Positions 22,206 to 59,058 of a stretch of DNA of 64,000 nucleotides are shown here, one piece after another. Source of the stretch: Balamuthia mandrillaris (Eukaryota). Positions within the stretch are counted from its first letter, which is position 1; every line of letters starts with the position of its first letter. The position numbers and the translations under genes were made by a program. The notes beneath the pieces were generated by a model. That model made no database searches and was not told the DNA's origin. It was given only the letters and a program-made list of their open reading frames with translations. The stretch lies in the NCBI GenBank assembly GCA_031835245.2, contig JAVKOQ020000046.1, positions 1 to 64,000 of the forward strand, written 5' to 3'.

Positions 22206-22925
22206 ATGCAAAAAAATGGCAAGCTTTGCATGTCTCCTTTGGTTTAATATTTCTCATCAATGTATAATAAACAAAAAAAAAACCTCTAAACAAAAAAGCA
22301 AACACAAAAAACTAACAGAAAGAAAATAAACCATAGTGCTATTATGATATAGCAAGGACGTGTCCTTCAACCAAGCGCACAATCTTCTTTCATTTAGCAC
22401 ACCCTTTTTCTGCGCAAAAAAAAACAACGCGACGGGAAAAAGCGTAGCAGAGTTTTTTTGTAGTATTAACGTGTATTGTTTTTTTGGGGGGGAGGGAGAG
22501 AGAGAAGAAAGAGAAGGGAATCGGTTTTCGCCGCGGCGATTCGATTTTGTTGGCGATTGCGTAGCGGTGGTTGTTGTAGTAGCGAGCTCAGGAAACTTTG
22601 GTAGGAGCAGGTGGAAGCAGGAACAAGAAGTACAAGAAGATCAACCATCTTTTTTTGTTTTTTCCAGCAGATTTTTTTTTTCTGGCAATCAAAGACGACG
22701 TGGTAGTAGAGGAAGAAGAGAGAAGGTTGTTGCTTTACGTTAAAGATATTTTTTTTTGTATTGTTTTCCTTCTCTTTTTCTTTAAGCTCTAACAAAAGCG
22801 TTTTTGCTTTTCTTAAAAAAAAAAACAGGAATCAAACTGTACTCTGGATTTCCATTCGATTTCTTTTGCGTTTTCATCATTTTTTTTTTAAAAAAAAGAT
22901 TGATTGAAATCGAAAAGAATCGAAG

Positions 22926-25900
22926 ATGCAAAAGAACAAAACGGATGAGCTAGAACCCGATGGACCGCGCTTATACCAACAACCACAACCACTACAAAAC
23001 GGCGAAAAGAAGACTCACACCACAAAGAGCAGGACCAAACACAAGGTCCGATACCGCAGCTTCTCCTGCATCACCTCTACTGATCAGGCTGCGATGGCCG
23101 CTGAGGCCCAAGCCCAAAAAGCAGAGGAGGAGCAACGGGCTCATCAACAACCAAACAACAGCAACACTGATGAGACGATGGGGACTATGCCTCCTGCCTC
23201 TGTGATTTATTTCCCCACGTCGAAGAACGCAGAGGAGAACAGAGAGCAGCCGCAACAACCATCACCAGAACAAACACAGCTTTCCACTTCTGTCCCTGCA
23301 GGAGACTCGATGAGGAAACTTGACGAGCAGCAAGTGCCCTCTTCTGCGTTCCTGTCTGCTGCTGGCCCTCTGTCTTCTGGACATTCTTCTACTCCAACGT
23401 TAACAGCAATGAAGAATGGGCAAGAAAAAGCAAAAGCTCCCAAGCGACGACTGAAGCGCAGTCTTTCAACTTCTAATGCTCTTTCTTCTTTGTTGGAGAC
23501 GCGAGAAAAGGGGGATGATTTCTCCTACTCCTCCTCTGTTTTATCGCCAAATGCGAACCGGAAACCTTCGTTTGTATCTACTTATGCTCAGGTACTCATC
23601 TCGCTCTCTTCTCTCTTCGTTCCTCTTATGCAACACTTGTTATTAATGATGGTTTTGCCCAAGTAGCACCGGCCCACTCCACAGGCTTCGTTAGCAGATA
23701 TAGCACAAGATCGCTATTACAAAGTAGGAGAGAAGGTACCTTTTGACGAAGACAGAGAGCATGAGTTCAAGCAGCTGCACCAAGTGGACAAACCCGTAAA
23801 ACGAATCGCCGAGTATGCGGGCAAGTACATCAACGCTTTCCTTAACACCAACGGAGGAGTGTGTTACTTTGGTATCGATGACGATGGTGTGGTCCATGGT
23901 GTACACCTTCCTAGAGCATCCAGGTATACCGTCCACTTTGTTTTTTTTTTGGTCTTGTTTGTTTCATGTTTCGTTTGTTGCCTTATGCTTTTCATTGTTT
24001 ATGTAATCCCCCTCCTTTTGGGGTTCGGCATTGTCATTTTAACACAACAAAACAGGGACGCAGTACGGTTACACGTAGATGGAATTGTGGAGGCCTTTTG
24101 GCCCGCTGTAGATGCAAGGACTTGCGCCATCGTATTCGTGCCATTGGCTCCACCAGCCAACCCCGATTTTTATGTGATGGAACTGCACGTCAGCAAAGGT
24201 ACTGCGCCTGTTTATTTGATGAGCAGGAGCCGTCCGACGGCCTACATTCGTCGTGCAGGAAGTATTTATCAGATGAGCATGGAAATGATATTGCAAAGAA
24301 TGAACTTCACCATGAATGCTTCTGGCTCATTTTTTCAACCTATTCAAGGCACTCTTCTCTCTCTCTCTCTCTCTCTCTCTCCCTCCCTCCCTCTACTTTT
24401 TGTAGTTAACTGGTTGTATAGATAAGTTAACTTACAAGTTGGAAGCTGCACCACGAGATTTCGTTGGCCGGAAAGGTGAGCTGGAAGAAATTATTGCCAC
24501 GGTGGAACAATCCGAGGAACATGTTAAAGTCGTGTGCCTCTATGGACAAGGCGGCGTGGGTACGTTCTTTGCTCTGCAATCTTTGCGTTTCTTTCTTTAG
24601 GTGTGCAGTCAAGAATTAATGAATTTGTTCTCTTCGCTCCATTCCGTTTTGTTTTTTCTGAGCACAGGAAAGACAACGCTCAGTCGCCGCTTAGCGGCAA
24701 GCATGGCAAGCAGCTATCCTGACGGCCAGTTCTGCATCAAGCTGAACGGCTCCACCTCCAAACCAACGGAACCCTATGACGCAATGGTCTACACCATTCG
24801 TGCTTTCAACCCTTCCATCGACATGCCCTCCAGCGCCACCGAAGTGGAGGGCTACTACCTCTCTTGCTTCAACCAAAAGCGAATGATCCTGTTGTTGGAT
24901 GATGCTTCTACCATCACCCAAATCACCTCTTTGATCCCTCGTTCCACTTGTCTCGTTATCATCACCTCTCGCAGAAACTTAGGACTTGAGTCTGGAGGCG
25001 AAGTAAATGCAGTTTGCGTCAAGAAATTGGGTAGGCTCTCCAAAGAAGAAGCCAAGTTGATGCTGCTTCAAATGGAAGCCACCCAACCTCCAAAGATCAA
25101 TTATCCTCATATGCTTGCTGCTTCTCCCAATCATCAACTCCAACCGGCCCTCACTTCTTCATTTCCTGAGCCACCTCTCTCTCCGCCTTCATCGCCAAGA
25201 CTTGGTTCTTCAGAAGCCTTCTCAGACGGACCTTCTTCAACCTCTGCTGTCTCTTCTCCTCCTGGATCTTCATCCACTTCAATTCCTTCCACCAACCCTT
25301 CAACGTCCCAAGCAACACATGCGGAACCTCGGTTAACCGAAGAACAAGCCGAACGGTTAGCAGAGTTATGCGGTTACCTTCCTTTGGCATTGCGAGTTGT
25401 TGGTGGCACTCTCGCCAAACAAAAGAACTTGAAAGCGGCAACCCTCATTGAGCGACTGTCAAAAAATGAAGCAGAGATATTGCGGCTCGAAGCCAACACA
25501 GTCGAGATGTGCATTAGTGCTTCCTACGATTTGTTACCTCCTAAATTGCAGCGACTATTCCTTTCATTGTCTCTCTTTCCTGGTACTTTTGATGGTAAAT
25601 ACCTTCACGGTCTTATGCTTTATCCTATTCCATTCCTAACACAACTAACTAACGTAACCCAAACCAAAACTCAGAAATGGCAGTTGCACATGTCTGTGGG
25701 GCAGACGAAAGCGTGATAGTGGAAGGTCTAAGCGAGCTACTCACCAGTAGCTTATTAGAATTCAATCCGGTGGCTTGGAGATACCATCTCCACGATACGG
25801 TGCGAGTCTTCGCCTCCATCACAGCAATCAAGCACGATGAGGAGTATAGACAGAAACAAAAAGCAAAACTCGCAGAACGACAACGCTCCGACGTTGTTGC

Positions 25901-28900
25901 AGATGAAAACAAACTTTCGTTGTTGTATTTGTGGAAGAATCGTTTCGTGGAATACTTTTACAACCTGTTGGAGAAAGTGAACACGTTATGCAAGAAAGGT
26001 GGAGATGACCTACTTTCCGGCTTCAAGTTATTCGATTCAAACAGCCACAACATCAAAGAGGCGATGCGGCTCTGCGTGATGGAACTGCACAAATATGACC
26101 TGTTTTGTGGCTTTGCTAGGCTTGGAAAGTACATCTTCCGCACGAGACTGAATCCATATTCCTTCTCCGAACTCTATCAAAGCTTGTTGGGAGCAGTGGG
26201 AGAACGTTCAGCAAAGAAAGGAGGAGATGACGAAGAAGAAGAAGAAGAGCTACAAGGTTTGAGAGCACAACGGAAAAAGTTATCAGGAGGATTATCCGAC
26301 ACGGACCGCGTGTTGATTCTCAACGAATTGGGATTTGCATATTCTGCACAGGGCAAGTACGATGTCGCCGAAAAGTGTTATGCAGAGTCTCTTCGCATCG
26401 CAGAAGAACACGTTGAGGATGGAGATAAGCAGGAAAAGGTTAGTAACGACACCGCGGCAACGAGAAGCATTGGGTTGAAGACATCTTTGGATATGGGCAC
26501 CACCAACCTTTCCATGTGGAAAGGAGCAGTCTCTTCTGCCTTGAACCATCTCGGCAAACTCTACTGCGATCAATGCAAGTACTCTTTAGCTGAACGACAC
26601 TTGAAGAGAGCTCTCAGTATCCGAGAAAACCTCTACAGCCATCTGAAGGCACAAATGGAATCCATCAACATCCATAGCAACGATAAGCAGCAATCCAAAG
26701 AGGAAGAGGAAGAAGAGAACGAATATTTAGAAGTATGTTTGGAGAAGATCGGAGAGAGCTTAATGTCGTTGGGAGCGGCATACACCCAACTCGGAAAATA
26801 CGATGAAGCAGAACAGCTCTTCAAACGTGCTCTTACGATCTACAAACCTGATTATCAATTTACCGAGAACCCTTCTTCTTTATCTTCTTCCTCGTCATTT
26901 CCATCATCAACTGGAGGCGGAAGTAACACTCGTCGTCCATTGTCTCGAAGTGGATGGCGCCGAAGAGAAGGTTTTCGTGAAGTCAATAAGATACTGCGAA
27001 GACATGTTCATGTTCGCCGGAAAGGCAGCGACACCGAAGAAGACTCCAGCTCTGACGATGACGATGATACCAACAAGCGAAACACCACTCAGCAGCAGTC
27101 TTCTTCTCCTTGTTCCTCTGGCCGACACAAAGTAAGAAAACATCGACGTCCAGCCATCGATTATGGATTACAAGTAGCCAATTGTTTGGACCATTTGGGC
27201 AGATTGCTCAGTACCAAAAGCAAATATGCCGAAGCAAAAGCTCTTCACACGGATAGTCTTTTGCTAAAGAAGCGATTGTTGGGACACACTCACCTAGAAG
27301 TTGCCCGCACCAGACAATGTCTGGCCAAAGTGTTGGGCATGGAGGGAAAGTATGCGGAGGCTATAGCAGAGTATCAGAGCTCGATGGAGATAAGGAAGGT
27401 CTGTTTGAGCCCCGAGCATCCGCTTGTAGCCAACAGTCTTAGGCATATCGCTTTCCTCCACTTCTATACGGGTGACTATGACGTGGCTGAAGTAAGCCCT
27501 TCTTTCTTCCAGTTCTTTCAGCTCTTCCTGTTCTTCATTCCCCCCCTCCCTCCTCCTTTTTGCTTCTTTTAAACTCAACTTTGTGTATTTTAGTCGATGT
27601 ATTTAGAAGCGTTGGACATGTTGAAGGAAGTGTTGGGAACAAAACACTTGGAAGTAGCCATCGTTCTCAATGATCTTGGCCTTATCTACAACCATCAAGC
27701 ACGCTACGACGAAAGTGAGCCATTGTTCCTTCGTTCACTACACATTCGTAAAAAACTGTTGGGAGAGCAACATCCTTACGTTGCTGTTGTTCTTAACAAT
27801 ATTGGCAACTTGTACGTCCGTGTGCTTTATCTCCGCTTTTTTCCTTCGTTTCTTCGCTTTATGTTTTTGTTCTCGTTATTTCTGCTCTTGGTCCTAATTT
27901 GCTGACATAAACAAGATATCGAAAACAACGGAAGTATGAAGAGGCGGAGAAAAACTTTGCATTGGCGCTGAAGATACGCGAAAACTGTTTCGGAGAGGAA
28001 CATCCGGAAGTAGCACGCACATTGCACAACATCGCTACTTCCTACTCTGCCCAAAAACAGTACGCCAAAGCCAAAGACCTCTTTGAACGATCCCTCCATA
28101 TCCGAACCAAGGGTATTGTTAATGCTTTCTTGTGTTGTGTGATTCTTTGGTGTTATTTTCATTTTTGTTTTTGCTGTAATTCTAACACTGTTACTCTTGT
28201 TACTTAAATTTTAGTATTGGGACCAGACCATCCCGAAGTGGCAAGCGTATGCAATGGACTTGGCACTCTCCATGAATGTCAAAAGGACTGTGCGGAGGCA
28301 CTGCGTTACTATCGCCTCGCTCTAGATCTCAACCGCAAGTCATTTGGGGCGTACCATCCTTCCATCGGGCTCAATCTTTATAAGATGGGCAACTGTCTGA
28401 GAATGATGAAACAATACGCTGAAGCAGAACCCCTCTTGAAGGAAGCTCTCATTCATACCAAAAAGTGTTTCGGAGGCAACGAATCATCATCCTCGTCTTC
28501 TTCGTCATCTTCTTCCTTGAATCAACGGGATTGTTATTCGTTCAGAACATTACAAAGCATGCAATCGTTGCAAAAGTTTTACAGAGAATGGGCGGAATAC
28601 TGCGTCAACAAGCTTCAATCAAGACACAAAACGGAGAAAGAAGAAGAATCGGAGGAAAGAGAGCACGATCAACAGCAACAACACAAATCAAGAGAAGAAA
28701 GGAAGCAATTAAAGAAACTGCGGAAAGCAAAAGAGATCGAAGAGGAGCAGCTACAACGAAAAGCTGAAGAGAACTTTAAGAACTGCGCTTTCATCCTGAA
28801 AGAAATGGGCAAAGAGGATGAGGCTAACGAAGTGTTGAAACGAATGGAATGCATGAGAGAGCATCAAGAAAAACACAAAAGACGAAAAATCGAAAAGATC

Positions 28901-29185
28901 AAGCGAGAAAGAGAAATGTGGTTAGCGAAAGAACGAAAAGAGCAAACTGCTGCAGCTTCTGCTTCTTCCTCTTCGAAAGGGCTGGCGACGAAAGAAGTGG
29001 TAAAGAAGGAAAACAACAAGAAGCAGATCCAGCAGCAAACCAAAAAACAAAAAGCGCAACCAACGAAAACGAAGGTGGAAGAAGGACACAGTGACTCTTT
29101 CCGGTTTTTCCTGTTGCTCGTTTTCTGTTCGTTGATGGGCGTGTTATTATCGTTGCTCTACTCCCAGGTGTATGGCGCTTCTTGA
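22926..29185 (+). CDS. Schlafen/AlbA_2 - NB-ARC (STAND) - TPR - TM protein (NLR-like), 9 exons
   Basis: Introns reconstructed in frame: 23592-23666, 23924-24055, 24349-24421 (GC-AG), 24560-24667, 25595-25674, 27492-27593, 27812-27915, ~28112-28214. AlbA_2: FDEDREHEFK..YINAFLNTNGGVCYFGIDDDGVVHGV. NB-ARC: DFVGRKGEL, Walker A GQGGV|GKTT, Walker B ILLLDDA, IITSRR, LCGYLPLAL, SYDLL, YHLHD. TPRs with HP(E/L/Y)VA motifs. Hydrophobic C-terminus FFLLLVFCSLMGVLLSLLY. Confidence 0.9.
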
Positions 29186-29689: not shown

Positions 29690-30481
29690 TCACGCTATGC
29701 GAAAGGTAAGGTTAATTCGAGGCTGAGTGCCCTTGGTCTCTTTGGGCACACTGTGCTTCCAGTACCGCTGTGTCTTGCCCTCCATCAAGATGATTCTTCC
29801 TGGAGTCAACACGTACTCCAGGGAGGCCTTCTTCTCTGTGTACTGCTTCATTAAGAACCGCCGTGTCGCTACCAGGGACAAGGAGGCTATCTTGTTCTTG
29901 CCCTCCGGGATCCCCTCCTTGTCCGCATGAAAGCCGATGTAGTCCCTTCCGTCTCTATACAGGGTGATAAGCACGCAGTTAAAGCGACACCCTCCGCAGA
30001 GCGCCCCTAACTCATCCCTCAGCTTCGCCACCGTGGGCGACCATGGCAATGCGGGTTGCCGCTGGCAGAGGGTGGTGGTCAGCTCTGGGTCGGACATCCA
30101 GGAATACATGCGAGGCGTATTGATGGACTTGCCAAAGATCTTGAACTGTCCCTGGATAAAGTTGGGCAGCTCGAGGAGCTCTTGGAAGAGCTCCGAGGCC
30201 TCGGAGAGGCTGAGGTAGCCAGGGCAGAAGCTTACAAAGCACCCCTCACTTATTTCTTTGCGTTGAATGTTTGCTTTTCTGTTGGTAGATGTTCGTGCTG
30301 GTTCTTCTTTTGTTTCTTCCACTTCTTCTGGAACTATTTCTTTGCCTTTGTGCCGTTTGGTGGACGCGCCCGCTACCTCCTCTTTGTTCTTGTGCTTTTT
30401 CTGCTCTGAGGCATGTTCTTCGTCGCACTTCCGTTTGGTGGGAGAGCAAGAGACAAAGGCTGTTATTTGGGTTTGCTTCAT
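29690..30481 (-). CDS. AlkB-family 2OG-Fe(II) dioxygenase (ALKBH2/3-like), intronless
   Basis: FNCVLITLYRDGRDYIGFHADKE (HxD), IASLSL, WKHSVPK (H), RINLTFR (RxxxxxR). Likely start MKQTQITAF at 30481. Confidence 0.9.
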   Translation of the reverse strand: MKQTQITAFVSCSPTKRKCDEEHASEQKKHKNKEEVAGASTKRHKGKEIVPEEVEETKEEPARTSTNRKANIQRKEISEGCFVSFCPGYLSLSEASELFQELLELPNFIQGQFKIFGKSINTPRMYSWMSDPELTTTLCQRQPALPWSPTVAKLRDELGALCGGCRFNCVLITLYRDGRDYIGFHADKEGIPEGKNKIASLSLVATRRFLMKQYTEKKASLEYVLTPGRIILMEGKTQRYWKHSVPKETKGTQPRINLTFRIA

Positions 30482-30855
30482 CCCTAACTGAAGCCGCAGT
30501 TGTTCACGAAGGAACGCACCAGGCAGTAATGATTCCTGCGAATAAACTTTTGGTACCTTGATTCCAGGGAATATATATATAAGAATTTCTAAGAAAGGTT
30601 TCGCCAAAATATTTACCGAAAAGCTGTGTCGACGTCATCTTGTCTTTTTTGGAGCAATGTTGACGTCTTTCCTTCACCATTACTCCTCAAAGGCTGCACG
30701 AAGGCTGCAGAGCAAAAAGTATTCCGTTCTTTTTCTTTTGTTGTTGGAGAGAAGAAAGAAAGCTGCAAGGCCTGCGGAACTCGCGATCTCTCGGTTGTCG
30801 GGACGGGAAGCTGCTGATCGTTTCGCAAACCACCACAGCAAGGCCTAAAAACACA

Positions 30856-47673: not shown

Positions 47674-49000
47674 GAGAGAGAGAGAGAGAGAGAGAGAGAT
47701 GTTAACATAAAAGCGAACACAACAAAAAAAGAAGAGAGAAAGGCCTACAATGCTCCTGAGGTTGTTTTCAACAGCAACGTCAAGACACCTTCTGTAACAA
47801 GAACGCAACTTGGTGGGGTACTCGCCGACCGGCCCAACCGTGTGCAATATAAACTTGGCGGGCAACCTGTATCCTCTCGAGATCTTACAGTCGCCGGTCT
47901 TGCAGCCTTTATGTTCGTAGCAGTTGTTGATCAGACAGTGATAAAGAATAGAAGAAGACAGAATGAAGAAAGACAAAAAGGAACAATGAAAGGAAGAAAC
48001 GACAAGAAAGAAAACGAACAAACGAACGACAAGAGAAGAAAGAGGAAGACGAAGAAAACAAACCATTCAATTGAAGACACTCCTCATAGAGATCATCTCC
48101 AGCAGCCCTATGAATAGCCCCATCGATGCCTCCTCCTCCCAGCAAGGACCTGTTGGCCGCGTTGACCACTCCATCAATCTCCAGCGTGGTGATGTCGCCC
48201 CTCCACAGGGAGACTATGCGGTTGAGCTCCGCGTCGCCCTCAAACAGGGCCTGGTCCGCCGGGTGCTTCTTCTCCTCCTCCTCGGCCTCCTCGTCCGAGT
48301 CTTTTCTTCTCCACCTTCCTCCTCCACCGCCCCATCCTCCAAACCCGCCCCAACCTCCTCCTCCTCCTCCTCCCCATCCTCCTCGATTGAAAGCTTGATT
48401 CCTTCCACCTTTGTTGGCAATGTTTTCGTCCCCGTCAGAGCTGTCGGAAGAATCGGATGAGGAGGAATCCAGGGAGAGGTCCTCCACGGGAGGAGGGAGC
48501 TCCTCGCCGCGCTCCTTGGCCTCCTGCTCCAGCCTCTGGCGCTCCTCCAGGAGGGCCGCTTTCCTCTGCCGTCTCTCCTCCCGGGCCTTGGCACGAAGCT
48601 CCGCCTTTTCCCTCTGACGCTGCTCCTTGGCGAGCCTCTCCTGCTCCTCCTTCTCCCTCTTGAGGCGCTCCTTCTCCTCCTTCTCCCGGCGCTCCCGCTC
48701 TTTCCTCTCCTTGAGGGCCCCCTGCTGCTCCTCCCAGGTGGTGAGGTCCTCCAGGCCGGCAAAGCGGTCGCGGCAGCGGTAGCGCTTGCGGCGCTCCTCC
48801 AGGGAGAGGGCCTCCTCCCTGCGCCACATCTCCTCCCTCGTGAATTGCGGCTCCCTTCTCCTCCAGCTCCATCCGCCGCCGCCGCCACCTCCTTTACCGC
48901 CGCCGCCGCCACCGCTCACCCCCCAGCCACCACCAAAGCCGCCGCCACCACCACCACCGCTCACCCCCCAACCACCACCAAAGCCGCCACCGCCGAACAT
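46107..49000 (-). CDS. MacroD-type macrodomain (ADP-ribosylhydrolase) fused to five C-terminal RPEL repeats
   Basis: Macro: [69 protein letters not shown]. Phase-1 intron 46957-47089 joins ..[14 protein letters not shown] in frame. Further introns 46621-46755 and 46376-46443 keep frame through five RPEL-like units. Confidence 0.88.
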
Positions 49001-49467
49001 TTATGGAATATGTTGAGTTCTTCTTTCTTTTGTGTGCTCTTCTTCGGCTAAAGAGAGAAGAAGCAGAAGAGGGAGAAGCCGGAAGGGAAGCAGAAGAAGA
49101 AGAAGAAGAAATGGAAGAACTGAAAAGAATTTTTTTTGTCTGAGCTTATATGCTTTCACGGAAGTAATTTAGCGAGATAAACAAGGGAGGGAAAGCGTTG
49201 TCCTTGGCAGAACGGAGCATAAAGGAGTGAAACAATGTGGACAGTTTTCCTCGCAGACCAGAACGGGGACGCGGAATAAGGACCCACGTATGACGTCACC
49301 GAGGGAGGACCAGCAGTTGTGCAGCTTATGACCACCTTTTTATCATTCCAAACATTCTTCACATACCGAAAAAGAATGAAATTTTGCACGAGGAGCCTTT
49401 GCATCAGACTTGGAAAAAAATTAAACGCCACAGAAGCTAGCTGCCAGCCGAGGGAAGCCCTGCAAGG

Positions 49468-52400
49468 ATGGATGCCTCAAGGAGTACTCGTCGTCCGTTG
49501 TTCCCGAATGCCACTCATCCCGACTCTGAAGAAGAGGTGAGTGCTCTCTCTCTCTTCTTTCCATCACTAAATTTTAACTTGATGTGGCCGTATCAGCAAA
49601 TACGGCCGCTGTTTCCTATTGCGAAAGATTCCTCCTCCTCCTCCTCCTACTCCTCCTCTTCTTCTTCTTCAGGCGCTGTAAACAGTTTTACTCCACTATT
49701 TCCCATCTTTCCTTCCACTTCTTTTTCTTCTTCTTCTGCCTCTTCAACCTTTTCTGCTGCTTCATCGCTGGCCCTCGTTTCAGGCTCCTCCTCCTACGTC
49801 GCTCCTGGTGGAGAGCAAGAGTCCCATGACTCTTCCCCCTCCGATGAGGAAAGGAAAGGAAGGCAGCTTGTGGCGGTGAAGCCCTCTTCCGAGAAGAGAC
49901 CCAGAGCTGCTGACTTTTTTCGCTCGGTTGTGTCGCTGCTCAGCAGCAGTGACAGCGAAGAGAGGGAAGAAGAGGAAGAGGAGGAAGAGCAGCGCAGAAA
50001 GCACAAACGAAAGACACGAACGAAAGAAGAGGAAGAGGAGAAGAGACAGAAGAAGAGAAAGAGAGACGACAAGAAAGGGACGACACGAAGAAAGAAGGAC
50101 AAAGAAAGAAAGAGAAAGAAGAAGCACAAGAAGGAGAGGGAACGGGCGAAGGAAAAGAGGAAGAGCAGAAAGAAGGTTGGAAAAGAAGAAGAAGGCAAGA
50201 GGGAGCTTACCGCTGCAGAGAGGGAGAAGGAATTGCGTTTGGAAAGACAGCTCGCTAAAGAGGATATCCGCAGAGCCTCCATGCGATGGCTTGATCCGTC
50301 TAAGTACCTTTTTTGTTTCTCTCTCTCTTTCTCTCTCGTTCTTCGTTCTCTCCTTGTTTTTTTTTGTTCTCTATTTTGTCTATTCTCTTTTAACAGTCGT
50401 TTGTTTGGTGTGAAAACAAATAGAGAATATGACAACGTGGAAGAACTCTTTGAGTACAACTTCAAAGGAGACCGAAACAACCTTGTCTTTGGCTACTTAT
50501 ATACACAGGACATTCCTCGCTACCATCGCAGACAACGGTTCTGCCTTGGGCTTCCCTCCAACGAACGACTCTCCGTGTCAAAGCATTTTGGCTATCTCAT
50601 CATCAACTTGGAAAATTCCACCACTCACAGCGCTCGATACTGCAATCCCAAGTTCGCAGTTGGGATGCCAACTTCCTCTTCTTATTCTTCTTCTGTTAAA
50701 GGAAAGAAAACAACAAAGAAGGACAAACAAGAAGGAGAAGCGGAGCAAGACCAACAAGCAGAAGAAAGCGAAAGGAATGGCTTTATTTCGTTGGCGGGAT
50801 ATTCGAGTGATGAGGAAGATGGTCAGTTTGAAAGTGATGCAGAGGAAGAGGAAGAAGAAACAGTGGATGAATATTTACGGAGAAGGACCAGAGAATATAA
50901 TGAGCAAACGCGAGAGCATCCTAAAGACATCAAACTGTGGTTGCAATATATTGCCTTTCAGGATGAGTATCAAGCTTTAAGCTCTCGAGGTTTGTTTCCT
51001 TTGCTGTTTATTCTTTTTCGTTCTTCTTTATGAAGTTTGTTGACTGTTCTCTTTGTTTCAAGGAGGAGCAAGTGCAAAGCTTGTGCTGGACAAGAAGCTG
51101 GCCATTTACGAGAAAGCGCTTGCAGCCAATTCAAATTCATTCGTTTTGCTTTCAGGTTACTTGCTAACTTCTGCCAAAGTCTTAGAGTACGTTTTTCTTC
51201 TTGTTCTTCTTCTTGTTCTTGTTCTTCTTCTTGTTCTTGTTCTTCTTCTTCTTCTTCTTCTTCTTCTTCTTCTTCTTCTTCTTCTTCTCACTTCTCGCTG
51301 TGTATTAAAAGTGGTGAGCGGACATTACGTCTTTGGGAACAAACTCTAAACGAGCATCCCGCAGACGTGAAACTATGGAAACTCTATATATCATTCCGTA
51401 TATCCAGTTTCTCCACATTCACCGTTTCAGAGATTCGCGAAACGTTCATTTCAGCAATTCAAACATTGAACGAACAACGTTTAGTCCTCATGATGTTACC
51501 AACGAGCGAGCAGAACTTAAAACAAGATGAAAGAAGAAGAACTGAGAGGAAGCGAGAAAAAGAGTTACGACGAATGGAACAAGCCATGCTGGAAGTCTTT
51601 GTGCAAGCTTGTTACTTCGAGAAACGAGCAGGATACTCCGAGAAAGCGATCGCCATGTTTCAAGCTTTGTTGGAGTTCAACTGTTTTGCTCCTGATGCGT
51701 CTTTATTGCTACCAGGAGCAAACGAAGCAATAACAGCTGCGACGGCAGAAGAAAGAAGAAAGAAGAAAGCCACACAAACAGCAAAGCAGATGAAAAGAAT
51801 GCACCAAGCAAAGTTAAAGTTCTTTGAAGCGTTTTGGGAGTCAGAGACGTCCCGTTTGGGAGAAAGCGATGCAAAAGGATGGCAAGCTTGGATAGAAGCG
51901 ACTATGCAAAGCTCAAAGACTGCAACAGAAACAACAACAAAAACGTCTATCAATGAAGCAAAGGAAGAAGAAAAGAGGAATGAAGAAGACGAAGCCGGAG
52001 GGAGCGCGTTTAGCAAATGGGCAAAAGAGGAAGATCGACTCGATTCTATATGTATTTTACCTCAAACGTCGAAGAACACACCAACACATCTTCTGACAGA
52101 TCCAGAAAGAGTTGTGCTCTTCGAAGATATCAAGCACTTCTTATTTAGCTTTGCTTTCTTGGAAGATGGCGAGCGGCTACTGTTGTTCCATTTTTTGCGA
52201 TTTATAGGGCTTTATCACGTTTCTCTCGACTTTGCCTCTACTTCCACGTCATTTCATACATCAACAAACAAAGAAAGCACGGAAAGAGAAGAAGATGACC
52301 AAGGAGAGGAAGACATTGCGTTTGCTTCGAGCGAGGCTAGACTAGACGTTACGGACCGTTTAGAAGACTTAAGTTCGCTATTTCAGATGTTGTCTGACCC

Positions 52401-53983
52401 TGTTGCGCATAGCTCAAAGAAGTCGACAAAGCCAATGAACGAAACAAACGAAGAACAAGAAGATATACTGAGGATGATACCCACTGATTTGGCCACGTGG
52501 ACCATTTTCGCTCACCAACGCTTTCGGCCTCTTATCAATGACGATGTCAAAGTATTTGTCAGGTATCTTGTTTTCTTTGTTTTTCCTTCTGTCATGATTT
52601 GCTTCACTTCCATATTGATGTTTTCCTTTCTATAGCAACGTACTATCACAAACAAGATCCGCCCTTTTTGCGGCCGATGACGACTTGGCGTTAGCTCACA
52701 TCCGTCTCATTGCCTCTCCCACCTACAATAACGCTTCTCAACAACAGCATTTAGAAGGTTTACGCAAAGGTTGTGCCATGGCAAAGTCTCTGCTCAGCGC
52801 TCAGCGCACTAATCTCGTTCTCTACCACGAGTACGCTCTTATGGAAAACGCGACTGGAAATGTTGCGCAAGCTCGCAAGGTTTATTCGATGGCCCTTACA
52901 ATGTTGAAAAGCTTATCAGAGGAGGCGCGTCGTCATACGTTCCTTTTGTTGCGCGGTTTTGCAGAGATGGAGTTTTATCGAATGGAAGGAGGAGAAGGAG
53001 AAGGAGACGAGGAGCAGAAGAGGGAACAACGACGGTTGGAGAACGAAAGACGAGCGTTGCATATTCTTTCTTCGTTAAACTCCGGAGAAACATTTGATGA
53101 TTTAAGCATCGTATCCTCCGCCCAGGGCTTGTTGAAGGAGGTTCCTCCCACAAAATTGTTGAAAGCCAGAAAGGTTTTTTTCCTCGCTCTGTTTTCTGTT
53201 TGTTGTCCTTTTTTCTGTTATCTTTCCCTACACTTTGTCTACTCCGATAAATGACATCTCTCTCTCTCTCTCTCATATTTCGAAAGGTTTTCAAGCAAGC
53301 GTTGCAAGCAGAGTTCGACAACCTACGTCCGAAGGATCATTTACTCGACGGGTCGATGCCACAGAGACTCAAACATATAGGTATTGCTTACGCCATCTTT
53401 GAGTACCTGGCCTCTGGCTTGGAGGATGCCTGCAACGTCTTTGAAACAGTACTGGATGGATTGGAACGAGGTCCCTCGTCGACTGCTCCTCCTTTGTTGA
53501 ATGTTAACACCGACTTGGAGTATTTCTGGATAGCGTATGCTTTTTGCCTTGTTTTATTTCTTTTCCCTCCTCAAACAAAACTGACTGACTCGGTTACAGT
53601 TACATAAGAATGATGTACAGACACGCTTCCTATCACAGCAATGTTCCGCCGGGAAGACTTCGCCAACTCGTCGAACAAAGAGCCCTCAAAACTTTTCCTT
53701 CTAGCCCAGTTCTACTCTCTCTCTTCATCAAAGGCGAGGCAAGAAGCAAGATAGAGAACCGCATTCGAAGACACTTTGACGCCGCTTTGGAAAGATACTC
53801 TCGTGAACCGTTGTTATGGTTGTTTGCGGTTCGTTCAGAAGTGATGCGACTCGGTTCTGCTCATCGCATCCGGTCATTGTTTGAACGGGCTGTATCTTCC
53901 GTTGAGTTTGAAAGGTTTGTTTTGTTTATTTTGCTGCTCTCTCTCTCTCACGCTTACCTTTGTCTTTCTCTCGCTCACGCTTA

Positions 53984-54018
<35 letters not shown>

Positions 54019-54344
54019 CCGCTATCAATACATATAGCTGCGCGGATTGTGCCTTGCTTTGGCGGTATTATATCCAGTTTGAGCTTCGCGAAGGCGAGAA
54101 GGAAGCCGCACAACGGGTCTACTTTCGGGCAATCCATCAAACGCCGTTCTCTAAAGCTCTTTGGTTGGATGCTCTACGCAACGACCTAGCTTTTCCTTCG
54201 GCTACTTCTTCCTCTTCTTCATTTGCACAAACTGCGATGGCTGCTGCCGAAGAAGAACAGACTAAGTTGGTGGAGCTCATCTTAGAAAAAGAGATTCGGC
54301 TTCGCAATGATGCCCTTCCTTTATCTACCAGTGCCAATGACTAA
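49468..54344 (+). CDS. NRDE2: NRDE2 homolog (HAT-repeat nuclear RNA processing factor)
   Basis: GDRNNLVFGYLYTQDIPRY, RTREYNEQTREHPKDIKLWLQYIAFQD, AGYSEKAIAMFQALLEFNCFAP, FWESETSRLGE, DPERVVLFEDI, RVYFRAIHQTPFSKALWLD, EKEIRLR. Confidence 0.9.
51190..51290 (+). repeat. Intronic (TTC)n/(TTGTTC)n microsatellite
   Basis: Simple repeat inside an NRDE2 intron. Confidence 0.9.
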
Positions 54345-56416: not shown

Positions 56417-59058
56417 TCAATCCAATGAATATTCGAGTGCAACACTGTACTTCTCTTTCTCTTTTTCTCCAATGTCTTCTTCGCTCGCTTTGTTTTCTTC
56501 GTTGTTTGCTCCCTCGTTTTCTTTCTCTTTCTCTGCTTCTTCTGCTGCTTCTTCTAATTTGTTCGTTACCAGTTGTTGTTGTTGACCTTTTCGTCTCCGC
56601 CAGTCATAAGCGAACGGCGATTGTCCAAAGTTAACTGTGAGCTTAACTCCACCCGTATGTAAGCCTATCACCGGATAGAAACCGGAGGAAGAGGAGTCGT
56701 CGGAAGGATGAACTCCCTCGAAAGCAAAGCCGATGAAGCCTCCATTCTTTGTGTAATATAGTTTGCCAGTTGTCATGTTCCATCCACAACTGCACAAGAG
56801 AGAAGATAAATGAAAAAAATGAAAGGAACGAAAAAACAAACGTTAACCACACCAAAAGAAAGCCTCAGAAGAACACTAAAACAAAAGGCAGAAAAAAAAG
56901 TACCCTATGACGTCGCCTTTGCCATAGAGTGGCCCAAAAGGATGACCGAAGCCTCCTGTTTCATGCGAAAACTTTTTGCCATCGTCTGCATTAAAGAAAG
57001 GCAAGTCATTGGTTGCATTGTTGGACAACAAACGACAGGAAGGAAAGACAAGTCATACCACTGTGATAGCCGAAGCTCCCGCCATCCCATCCAGGCATTC
57101 CTAATCCAGAATGATTTACAGGACAGAGCCCCAAACCTATTGCACTGTTGTATCCAACAACAGATAGAAACGTAAGAAACAAAGTTCCGAAGAAAGAAGC
57201 AGACAGTCAGTAACAATAGCCAAGATAACAATGAACATAAAGAAGAAGAGAGGAGGTGGAAGAGACCAATCCTTGGGAGCACTGTCCACCGTTATTTCGA
57301 AATAATAGAACAAAGCTAGTTCTTCAGCATGTTGTAGTATACAGCTGCGAAGAGCAGGAATCGGCACATCACTGCGAATCATCAACGCACGCTCCTTCCT
57401 CGAGTTCTTTGCAAAAAAGCCACCACCACTTATTTTTGTTAATGTTACAATCAAAGAACAACGAGTATAAGCAAGAAGAATGAAAGATTTGAAGAAAAGA
57501 AGACAAACTATTGAAATGTGAAGCTTAAGTCACTATTGTAGAGTTGAAACTCAGGACAGTTGTGCGGTTTAGCGAGGCGAGAAGGAAGGATTAAAGGTAG
57601 AGAGCCTAATGGAGCGTGTGGCAACAACGGACGCAATGTTGCTCTGATATAGGAGAGAGAGAGAGAGATGAGAAATTAAAAAGTGAATAGCAGCGGAGAG
57701 GGATTGGTATGTACAAATGTGCTATAAGTTCTCTGTACTCCATTAACTCCTGATTACAATGGTAAGATGAAGCAAACGGAAGGAGAGAACGGGAGAAGCA
57801 AGGAAAAAAAAAAGAATGCAAAAAACAAAAGATCGAGAGAAAAAGCACCGTTTGTACGGCATGTATTTTTTCCATGAGCATGAGGTTTTCCTTGTTTCTT
57901 CGCTCCACTTTTGCAATGCTCAGCCGACAGTGTTCTTTCGTGTTTTCTTTCATATGCTCATCCAGGTCGCCTCTTAATATCTTTTGTAAAATATGAGAAT
58001 AAAGGAAGATAAAAACTAAAACTAAAACTAATAGAAGCACGTGCATTCAACTTGCATCCTAAAGGAAAATAAGGACAAGGTACTTCCACTGCAGGACAGG
58101 TTTGTTGGGAGTGTTGTTCCATTTGACCTCGTTGTAATGATGTGTTGCATTTCTCACATTCGATCATAACCGCCTGACATTCGCTTTCTACATGTTCCTA
58201 TGTTGTGTTGTTAAAAGAAAAAAAGCAAGCAAGCAAGAGATACAAGGAAACAAAATGCCTAACACACAACAAGAAGAGAACAAGAACAAAAAGAAAAAGA
58301 AAGAGCAAAAGAAAAACAAAAAGAAATAAAAGACGTACTTGAAGAGACCGAAAAGGTACATTGAGAGAGCAATGAGCACAAGGAGAGGGACGAGCTGGAC
58401 AGCTCTCAGCTACGTGCTGAGCCAGTTCTTTGCGCAGCATTGTCTCGCATTCTTCTGGCAGCAAACTGCAGCTCACTTCCTCCCATTCACACGCCTTCAA
58501 ATGGTCTTTCAAACACCCTTTGTTTATCACTGTTGTTAGTCCCACAGAAATAGAACAAAAAAGAAAAAAAGAAAAAAAATATAAAAAGAAAAAGAAAAAA
58601 AGAAAAGAAAAGAAAGAAAAAAAGAAAAGAGAGAAAAAAGAACGAAAGAAAGAAAAGAATAAAAGAAAAAAGAAAAAAAAGGAACGAAAGAAAGAAAAAA
58701 AGATAGAAAAAAAAAAGAAATGGTTGACGTCAACAATATAGGCACGAAGAGAAGGAAAGAAAAGGAACGAGAGAAGAGAAAGAAAGGAACCTCGTGTAAG
58801 AAGGGTAGCGGTGCAGCCTTGTTCCTTGTGAGGACAGTCGATGGGGAGGTTATCGATGATGCGTTGAATGGGACGGTTGGCACGCAGCTGCTCGGCTCGC
58901 AGCGGCTGTCTGCAGGCAGGACAGCTGGACATGCCATCCTCCCCTCTTTGAAGCCACTGCTCCACGCAGCTACGGCAGTACAACCGGGAGCAACAGGGAG
59001 TCTCCACGACCTCCTCAAAGATATCCGAACAAATCTCACACTCCAATTCGTCCTCCAT
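56417..59058 (-). CDS. RING + TRAF-type zinc fingers + coiled coil + SPRY protein (putative E3 ligase)
   Basis: CEICSDIFEEVVETPCCSRLYCRSC..CPACR (RING); CPHKEQGC, HLKAC, HVAESCPARPSPCAHC, HSQQTCPAVEVPCPYFPLGC (TRAF zinc fingers); YYFEITV, GMPGWD..SFGYH, DGKKF, GDVIG|CGWN..YYTKNG, FYPVIGL..NFGQSPFAYD (RanBPM-type SPRY). Confidence 0.85.

What the first reader, a model, noticed from the sequence alone, without database searches (positions are those of the whole stretch)
22926..29185. Eukaryotic NLR-like receptor with a Schlafen/AlbA_2 nuclease effector (AlbA_2-NB-ARC-TPR-TM): candidate amoebal antiviral/cell-death system
Seen in sequence: nine exons splice in frame into one protein of roughly 1,800 aa. 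Its order is a disordered N-terminus, a Schlafen AlbA_2 domain (~23710-24300), a complete NB-ARC module (~24450-25820), a TPR array (~26300-28470), a charged helix and a terminal TM. The ORF track splits it into at least six pieces and the Walker A motif is interrupted by an intron, so it is easy to miss. Established: effector-STAND-TPR is the layout of bacterial Avs antiphage receptors and fungal NLRs. AlbA_2 domains are the tRNA/rRNA endonucleases of mammalian Schlafens and of SAMD9/9L, which are themselves AlbA_2-STAND-TPR proteins. Inference: this is a pattern-recognition receptor whose TPRs sense a pathogen (giant virus or intracellular bacterium), oligomerise through the STAND domain and switch on an RNase that halts translation. 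I know of no characterised protist protein with this architecture.
Basis: partly seen in the sequence, partly recalled or inferred. Interest (0 to 1): 0.92.

Follow-up and report, generated by a model that had tools for sequence, protein, structure and literature searches.

The report
Ancient protist Schlafen-STAND receptor family
An expressed gene of the amoeba Balamuthia joins a Schlafen-type domain predicted to cut RNA, an NLR-type ATP switch, TPR repeats and a predicted membrane anchor; it belongs to an apparently undescribed family shared by distant single-celled eukaryotes that likely halts protein synthesis on sensing infection or damage.

Summary
Nine exons splice to 1,827 aa, identical to an NCBI Balamuthia mandrillaris protein. 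All eight junctions are seen in RNA reads, including the GC-AG intron joining the AlbA_2 and NB-ARC exons. The Schlafen catalytic set (E250, E255, K257, Y276, D294) and all STAND motifs are intact. It is not a SAMD9 or Avs9 member: there is no SIR2 or OB domain, and the ATPase is AfsR/Apaf-1-like. It is one member of a family of 40 AlbA_2-STAND proteins found here, named in Amoebozoa, Apusozoa, Ichthyosporea and Metamonada; ten paper searches found no description of it. Six eukaryotic members, including Thecamonas, share the TPR array and a C-terminal hydrophobic helix; 31 others lack both and usually have altered Walker B and MHD motifs. Unlike fungal NLRs, the TPR groove residues are conserved repeat by repeat, and strain variants in the core are mostly silent, so the ligand is probably conserved. 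Best reading: a membrane-tethered, ligand-gated RNase that shuts down translation. An infection trigger is likeliest (about 0.5); a conserved damage or dormancy signal is the main rival. Nuclease activity, oligomerisation and trigger are untested.

The parts
22926..29185 (+). Nine-exon gene, 1,827 aa (exons 22926-23591, 23667-23923, 24056-24348, 24422-24559, 24668-25594, 25675-27491, 27594-27811, 27916-28112, 28215-29185)
22926..23699 (+). Low-complexity N-terminus, aa 1-233; poorly conserved, absent in P0008/P0009
   Evidence: 10 non-synonymous of 17 listed strain variants
23706..24308 (+). Schlafen AlbA_2 domain, aa 236-392; E250 (23748), E255 (23763), K257 (23769), Y276 (23826), D294 (23880)
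   Evidence: Pfam; alignment of orthologue P0003 to SLFN11; orthologue model Z 14.4 to SAMD9 7ksp
24349..24421 (+). GC-AG intron with a CT repeat that joins the AlbA_2 and NB-ARC exons
24439..25065 (+). STAND nucleotide-binding domain, aa 412-584; Walker A 447-454 split by intron 4, Walker B 525-530, sensor Arg 553
25078..25329 (+). Ser/Pro-rich insert, aa 589-672, absent from the four orthologues aligned
   Evidence: pLDDT under 50
25330..26198 (+). HD1 (GxP motif at 687), winged helix (MHD-like LHD 799-801) and helical arm, aa 673-935
26301..26846 (+). N-terminal TPRs with acidic and Ser-rich loops, aa 970-1151
27174..28477 (+). TPR core of eight 42-aa repeats, aa 1261-1592, with invariant helix-A residues in repeats 3-6
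28559..29086 (+). Charged stretch, aa 1620-1795 (47% D/E/K/R), predicted helical stalk
29105..29161 (+). C-terminal hydrophobic helix, aa 1802-1820, predicted tail anchor; present in 6 of 6 TPR-bearing eukaryotic members

Best explanation
The gene encodes a spliced, transcribed AlbA_2-STAND-TPR protein with a predicted tail anchor that likely works as a ligand-gated RNase: a conserved infection-linked protein would bind the TPR groove, the STAND module would switch nucleotide state and oligomerise, and the clustered Schlafen domains would cut tRNA (or rRNA) to halt translation. Shown: gene, expression, domain order, intact motifs, deep conservation. Inferred from characterised relatives: nuclease activity, autoinhibition, oligomerisation. 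Least certain: that the ligand comes from an invader (a conserved viral or bacterial core protein, as for bacterial Avs receptors). The anchor would hold the sensor on the cytosolic face of an organelle.
For: Ex4ExK motif intact; PMC13056530 passages give it as essential for tRNA cleavage and phage defence. Y276 and D294 align with SLFN11 (the SLFN11 residue roles are recalled). Across 40 family proteins E255 is kept in 34 of 34 that cover it, E250 in 33 of 34 and K257 in 33 of 34. The orthologue P0003 AlbA_2 model (pLDDT over 90) matches SAMD9 (Z 14.4, rmsd 3.3, 163 aligned) and SLFN11/12/5 (Z 13.1-13.6); unrelated folds score 5.8 or less. Walker A, Walker B, GxP and LHD are canonical; the fold matches plant NLRs and Apaf-1. 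Listed strain variants: 26 synonymous and 3 non-synonymous in AlbA_2+STAND, 7 and 10 in the N-terminus, Fisher p 0.0014. Avs9 kills cells through its AlbA_2 site (PMC12680541 passages). Avs TPR sensors detect core phage proteins (PMC13581612 passages), a precedent for a conserved foreign ligand. The C-terminal part varies across the family (TPR, LRR in Blattamonas, none), as in immune receptors.
Against: There are no activity data. Internal TPR identity is low (mean 31%, max 45%) and groove residues are fixed between Amoebozoa and Apusozoa, with no sign of arms-race diversification; a self ligand fits equally well. No paralogue lies in the window, and neighbours are housekeeping genes. The closest solved STAND is AfsR, a non-defence regulator (E 1.7e-43). 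31 relatives have no TPR hit, so the core can work without this sensor. The gene is transcribed in all three raw RNA runs laid (200, 191 and 17 reads), and their culture conditions are not given, so nothing links expression to infection.
Confidence: 0.5

Rival explanations
1. Same switch, self trigger. The TPR groove binds a conserved host protein exposed by organelle damage or starvation, and the RNase drives cell death or dormancy such as encystment, as Apaf-1 responds to cytochrome c (recalled).
For: Invariant groove residues R1350, H1351, F1354, F1357, Y1358, N1392, D1393, N1434, N1435, N1438, R1441, R1473, T1474, H1476, N1477 in 6 of 6 proteins. Conserved tail helix in 6 of 6. Apaf-1-type STAND. 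Housekeeping neighbourhood. A conserved STAND with an enzymatic effector also exists in Dictyostelium (TEP1; passages).
Against: The AlbA_2 nucleases characterised in the papers read are antiviral. Family members occur in anaerobic metamonads and archamoebae, so a mitochondrial death signal cannot be the trigger for the whole family.
Confidence: 0.25
2. A non-lethal RNA-processing or quality-control nuclease with a narrow substrate, regulated by ATP and a constitutive partner at a membrane.
For: Deep conservation, strong purifying selection, transcription in all three raw RNA runs. One Paratrimastix gene model joins the module to GCN2, a tRNA-sensing kinase, though this may be a merged model.
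Against: No hit named from animals, fungi or plants appeared among the members looked up (not all members were named). A full STAND switch is seldom used for constitutive processing (general knowledge).
Confidence: 0.15
3. The AlbA_2 domain only binds nucleic acid, and the protein is a signalling scaffold or regulator like AfsR.
For: AfsR is the nearest solved STAND. Two members (P0068, P0072) have lost catalytic residues.
Against: The catalytic residues are near-invariant elsewhere, including in this protein.
Confidence: 0.08
4. A gene-model artefact joining neighbouring genes.
For: The AlbA_2-to-NB-ARC junction uses a rare GC donor, and no single read spans the mRNA.
Against: The junction is read in three RNA runs, and the same order occurs in orthologues such as Thecamonas P0010.
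Confidence: 0.02

Closest known systems
SAMD9/SAMD9L (animals) and bacterial Avs9 (PMC5445408, PMC12680541, PMC13600222)
   Same: N-terminal AlbA_2 nuclease with acidic catalytic residues, then a STAND NTPase and TPRs. The SAMD9 nuclease domain is the top structural match (Z 14.4, tied with SLFN11).
   Different: No SIR2-like domain (20-residue linker), no OB fold, no SAM. The family profile matches SAMD9 only in the AlbA_2 part (E 9e-6), while the STAND matches AfsR (E 1.7e-43) and Apaf-1. It has a C-terminal hydrophobic helix. PMC5445408 describes SAMD9 from animals and bacteria; the passages searched do not mention protists.
Bacterial Avs STAND-TPR receptors (Avs3 8dgc; families in PMC13581612)
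   Same: Effector-STAND-TPR layout with an enzymatic effector; a conserved sensor that would suit a conserved ligand.
   Different: No PADLOC Avs model matched; eukaryotic, intron-rich and tail-anchored; trigger unknown.
AfsR/SARP-type AP-ATPases and related bacterial STAND-TPR proteins (PDB 8k60)
   Same: Closest STAND by sequence. The eukaryotic family nests among bacterial-type TPR-STANDs with AfsR outside.
   Different: The effector is a Schlafen nuclease domain, not a DNA-binding SARP domain.
Vertebrate Schlafens (SLFN11/12/13/14) and prokaryotic pSlfn (PMC13056530)
   Same: Ex4ExK active-site motif and fold.
   Different: Single AlbA_2 lobe with no helicase, fused to a STAND switch.
NB-ARC-TPR proteins of fungi, Ectocarpus and Acanthamoeba (PMC4053784 passage)
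   Same: NB-ARC plus 42-aa TPRs; already proposed as pattern-recognition receptors in an amoeba.
   Different: No AlbA_2 effector is mentioned there. The repeats here are not internally homogenised (high internal identity in fungal NLRs is recalled).

Membership tests
Schlafen AlbA_2 RNase domain | Profile match above the curated cut-off | tested here: met
   PF04326 43.8 bits against 25.3
Schlafen AlbA_2 RNase domain | Ex4(E/D)xK catalytic motif plus downstream Asp | tested here: met
   E250, E255, K257, D294
Schlafen AlbA_2 RNase domain | Fold | tested here: met
   On orthologue P0003, not on this protein: Z 14.4, rmsd 3.3, 163 aligned to 7ksp. The Balamuthia model was of low confidence in this part.
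Schlafen AlbA_2 RNase domain | tRNA/rRNA cleavage | not testable with these tools
   needs an assay
STAND, AP-ATPase/NB-ARC class (NLR-like) | Walker A, Walker B, sensor Arg, GxP, MHD-like motif; NBD-HD1-WHD fold | tested here: met
STAND, AP-ATPase/NB-ARC class (NLR-like) | Tripartite effector-NOD-repeat architecture in one polypeptide | tested here: met
STAND, AP-ATPase/NB-ARC class (NLR-like) | Ligand-induced oligomerisation and immune function | not testable with these tools
   no complex prediction was obtained; needs experiment
SAMD9/Avs9 | AlbA_2 effector and TPR array | tested here: met
SAMD9/Avs9 | SIR2-like domain between AlbA_2 and the NTPase | tested here: not met
   only 20 residues between the domains; definition from PMC5445408 passages
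SAMD9/Avs9 | C-terminal OB fold | tested here: not met
   No OB family among the Pfam rows for the last exon. The region is 47% charged and ends in a hydrophobic helix. It was not folded.
SAMD9/Avs9 | NTPase of the SAMD9 clade | tested here: not met
   The profile hits SAMD9 chains only at the AlbA_2 positions; the STAND part hits AfsR, plant NLRs and Apaf-1. SAMD9 itself was not in the trees.
Bacterial Avs systems | Match to an Avs model | tested here: inconclusive
   PADLOC 2.0 gave only a generic TPR model and a weak TRIP13; the library predates newer Avs families
Fungal-type diversifying NB-ARC-TPR NLRs | High internal repeat identity (criterion recalled) | tested here: not met
   mean 31%, max 45%; repeats match orthologues position by position
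Fungal-type diversifying NB-ARC-TPR NLRs | Paralogue expansion with effector swaps in the genome | not testable with these tools
   no whole genome held; none in the 64-kb window

The most novel reading that the evidence does not exclude
This is a surviving branch of an NLR lineage older than the split of amoebae from animals and fungi, and possibly near the root of eukaryotes. It was taken whole from a bacterial AlbA_2-STAND-TPR defence gene, independently of SAMD9 and Avs9. The tail-anchored TPR form guards an organelle membrane against a conserved giant-virus or bacterial protein, and the TPR-less paralogues with altered Walker B and MHD motifs act as its helper or executor RNases, a sensor-helper pair in single-celled eukaryotes.
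Probability: 0.2. Interest if true: 0.92.

Novelty: new variant of a known kind. Interest (0 to 1): 0.74.

Why it matters
How amoebae and other protists detect intracellular invaders is largely open. This gives a concrete, expressed, motif-intact candidate with a predicted biochemical output (tRNA cleavage) and orthologues in harmless species, so the question can be tested directly. It also suggests a third assembly of a Schlafen nuclease on a STAND switch besides SAMD9 and Avs9, and that such genes were present in early eukaryotes. The family is hidden in databases under names such as 'SARP family transcriptional regulator' or 'TPR protein'.

Tried and rejected
No whole genome was held, so paralogue counts and effector swaps could not be measured. 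NCBI lists two accessions with this exact protein, either haplotigs or a duplicate; unresolved. Viral contigs: 91 pattern matches to P0003, none a relative; the A3 alignment gave no usable pattern. GTDB scan with P0066: 1 of 54 candidates, STAND-TPR part only. Plasmids: 301 records matched P0066, none over 80% of it, and the 15 listed all start after its AlbA_2 domain. So no named genome or gene neighbourhood was found for the bacterial-type AlbA_2-STAND-TPR proteins. The ESM Atlas gave only generic NB-ARC-TPR and AlbA_2 clusters. The 699-residue AlphaFold model was weak (pLDDT 61.5, pTM 0.37, 6 sequences) and says nothing about domain packing. AU tests neither reject nor show a clade of eukaryotes plus P0066/P0095 (p 0.198) or of the TPR-TM forms in the STAND tree (p 0.299). 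Alternative intron-7 donors 27820 and 27822 break the frame. Apparent joints at 26249-26698 and 22732-28496 have 18-22-base sides and non-GT..AG ends in low-complexity sequence and were rejected as noise. PMC7685563 (Burroughs and Aravind 2020) is not held and could mention such fusions. The difference in read numbers between X19 (17) and X17/X18 (200, 191) could not be interpreted.
Full report
1. The gene is real. Eight introns give one frame of 1,827 aa from 22926 to 29185. A homology search returned an NCBI protein of Balamuthia mandrillaris identical at all 1,827 positions, annotated only as 'NB-ARC domain-containing protein'; two accessions carry it. RNA reads show joints for 7 of 8 introns. 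The third intron has a GC donor and a masked CT repeat. Reads laid on 24400-25700 end at 24420 with loose letters that are the end of exon 3 (X17 3 reads, X18 5, X11 contig), while DNA run X1 covers 24404-25700 unspliced. Depth is low (200, 191 and 17 reads from the 3-5% of each raw run read), and no single molecule spans the mRNA.

2. Anatomy. Pfam gives AlbA_2 (43.8 bits, cut-off 25.3), NB-ARC (53.1, cut-off 23.5) and ten TPR_12 stretches. The nuclease motif E250-x4-E255-x-K257 is the Ex4ExK motif that PMC13056530 calls essential for tRNA cleavage (passages). Y276 and D294 line up with SLFN11 in the alignment of orthologue P0003 (their roles in SLFN11 are recalled). A model of P0003 from 36 sequences has pLDDT above 90 over most of the domain. 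It matches SAMD9 7ksp at Z 14.4 and SLFN11/12/5 at 13.1-13.6, with unrelated folds at 5.8 or less (Foldseek agrees). The STAND has Walker A at 447, Walker B at 525, the sensor Arg at 553, GxP at 687 and LHD at 799. Its closest solved sequence is AfsR (E 1.7e-43), then plant NLRs and Apaf-1; SAMD9 chains match only the AlbA_2 positions. A weak model of residues 234-932 (pLDDT 61.5) matches NLR and Apaf-1 folds. The protein ends in a charged stretch and a hydrophobic helix seven residues from the C-terminus.

3. The protein has conserved orthologues. The same order, including the terminal hydrophobic helix, occurs in Thecamonas trahens (Apusozoa) and in unnamed proteins P0008, P0009, P0050 and the split pair P0003/P0012 (taken as one gene because both lie on a 17,753-bp ENA contig). 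Identity to Thecamonas is 50% in AlbA_2, 29% in the NBD and 40% in the TPR core. The tail helix scores KD 1.46-2.79 in 6 of 6 TPR-bearing eukaryotic proteins, against at most 1.31 in 31 others. Three metagenome loci (L002-L004) hold intron-bearing close relatives, and L003 also has the STAND exons.

4. It belongs to a wider family. A profile of AlbA_2+STAND from six sequences, run over 1.84 billion representatives (best 150 of 10,838 at 1e-30 seen), and a second search gave 40 proteins with both domains after six near-duplicates were dropped. Five of the 40 seeded the profiles. Of those looked up (29 proteins, plus names), named members are Balamuthia, Cavostelium, Pelomyxa (two), Mastigamoeba, Mastigella, Arcella, Stereomyxa, Thecamonas, Creolimax, Paratrimastix, Monocercomonoides and Blattamonas; an Acanthamoeba model holds the STAND part only. 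These span three amoebozoan phyla, Apusozoa, Ichthyosporea and Metamonada (for seven of the species; the rest recalled). The list is a lower bound and shows no absences. Thirty-one members have no hit to the family's own TPR profile (Pfam agrees for those scanned). Most of these read E-N at Walker B and lack the MHD His; Walker A Lys is kept in all 40, and E255 in 34 of 34 that cover it.

5. Trees. In the STAND tree all 32 rows of the eukaryotic family form one clade (100/99) nested among bacterial-type TPR-STANDs, with AfsR outside (LG+G4; only two of the nearby outgroup rows are named, both Anaerolineae). In the AlbA_2 tree the TPR-TM forms group together with P0002, P0075 and P0077 (98/97). 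The nearest other AlbA_2 domains are bacterial cold-shock fusions (cluster members named KSB1 and Calditrichota) and two unnamed AlbA_2-NB-ARC proteins, P0066 (with TPRs) and P0095, that look bacterial (100/99). In a concatenated mixture-model tree rooted on P0066/P0095 the TPR forms branch first and the TPR-less forms nest inside at weak support (83, 89). AU tests leave both a whole-gene bacterial origin (p 0.198) and TPR-TM monophyly (p 0.299) open. Inference: TPR and TPR-less types are old paralogues, since each spans Amoebozoa and Obazoa, and the TPR form is probably ancestral. Transfer between eukaryotes was not excluded.

6. The sensor is conserved. The eight 42-aa core repeats share 31% identity with each other, but 36-56% with the same-position repeat of five orthologues against 26-28% off position. 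Sixty columns are invariant in all six proteins, including non-consensus helix-A residues such as R1350, H1351, F1354, F1357 and Y1358; that these face the groove is inferred from general TPR structure. Listed strain variants are 26 synonymous and 3 non-synonymous in AlbA_2+STAND, against 7 and 10 in the N-terminus (p 0.0014). This rests on 60 positions: 40 of 113 rows shown and 23 of 25 (two intronic rows left out). The TPR core had only one listed variant, so selection there was not measured. Neighbouring genes are housekeeping (44 ORFs scanned).

7. Mechanism. By analogy with STAND receptors (established), the protein rests autoinhibited, a ligand binds the TPRs, nucleotide exchange drives oligomerisation, and clustered AlbA_2 domains cut tRNA. 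Every step is inferred. SAMD9 is autoinhibited and activated through dimers (abstract of PMC13600222). Avs9 kills through its AlbA_2 site (PMC12680541 passages and section 7). The fixed groove means a conserved ligand: either an invader's core protein, as for Avs families (PMC13581612 passages), or a host damage or dormancy signal. I put these at 0.5 and 0.25.

8. Novelty. Ten full-text searches (listings and abstract starts seen) found no description of a protist AlbA_2-NB-ARC protein. PMC4053784 notes one NB-ARC-TPR gene in Acanthamoeba as a candidate receptor, with no effector named (passages). PMC12680541 has no occurrence of amoeb-, Thecamonas or protist in its text, and none of six taxon or accession terms in four supplements. 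PMC13581612 has no Schlafen or AlbA in its text and none of six terms in seven supplements. PMC5445408 passages define SAMD9 as AlbA-SIR2-STAND-TPR-OB. PMC13142454 and 10.64898/2026.09.21.753143 (passages) do not mention Schlafen. Fifteen of the 26 supplements of PMC13056530 were not searched, PMC7685563 is not held, and subscription papers are outside the library. Verdict: it works like SAMD9/Avs9 and NLRs, is a member of neither SAMD9 nor Avs9, and is a new variant of a known kind with unusual depth and spread. Interest 0.74.

Noticed in passing
P0061 (Paratrimastix pyriformis KAJ4455189.1), residues 1692-2308: The AlbA_2-STAND module follows a full GCN2 (RWD, kinase, HisRS-like) in one gene model: either a merged model or a fusion of an uncharged-tRNA sensor with a predicted tRNase.
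   Followed up: no
P0078 (Blattamonas), P0202 (Stereomyxa), P0069 (Monocercomonoides), P0062 (Pelomyxa): Other C-terminal regions on the same core: LRRs in Blattamonas, a PF17035 hit in Stereomyxa, and 760-800 unassigned residues in Monocercomonoides and Pelomyxa.
   Followed up: partly
P0004-P0007, P0036-P0049: Bacterial cold-shock-domain + AlbA_2 proteins with a helical tail (KSB1, Calditrichota) whose AlbA_2 is 55-60% identical to exon 2 of this gene; possibly an undescribed RNA-gated Schlafen nuclease.
   Followed up: partly
P0066, P0095: Unnamed, bacterial-looking AlbA_2-NB-ARC(-TPR) proteins with an AfsR-type STAND, distinct from Avs9; no genome holding them was found.
   Followed up: partly
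window 24349-24421: GC-AG intron with a weak donor and a CT repeat. DNA run X1 has other letters just before 24404, so the intron may differ between strains.
   Followed up: partly
window 29690-30634 (-), 47909-49000 (-), 49441-54344 (+), 58198-59058 (-): Neighbours include an AlkB-like dioxygenase directly downstream, a macro-domain gene, NRDE-2 and a RING/TRAF zinc-finger gene; others hit eIF5B/IF-2, a kinase, RasGEF, an M20 peptidase, I-BAR/SH3, TFIIE-beta and Ras.
   Followed up: no
window 22926-29185, RNA runs X17/X18: Many sites show two alleles within one run, consistent with divergent haplotypes or two gene copies.
   Followed up: no
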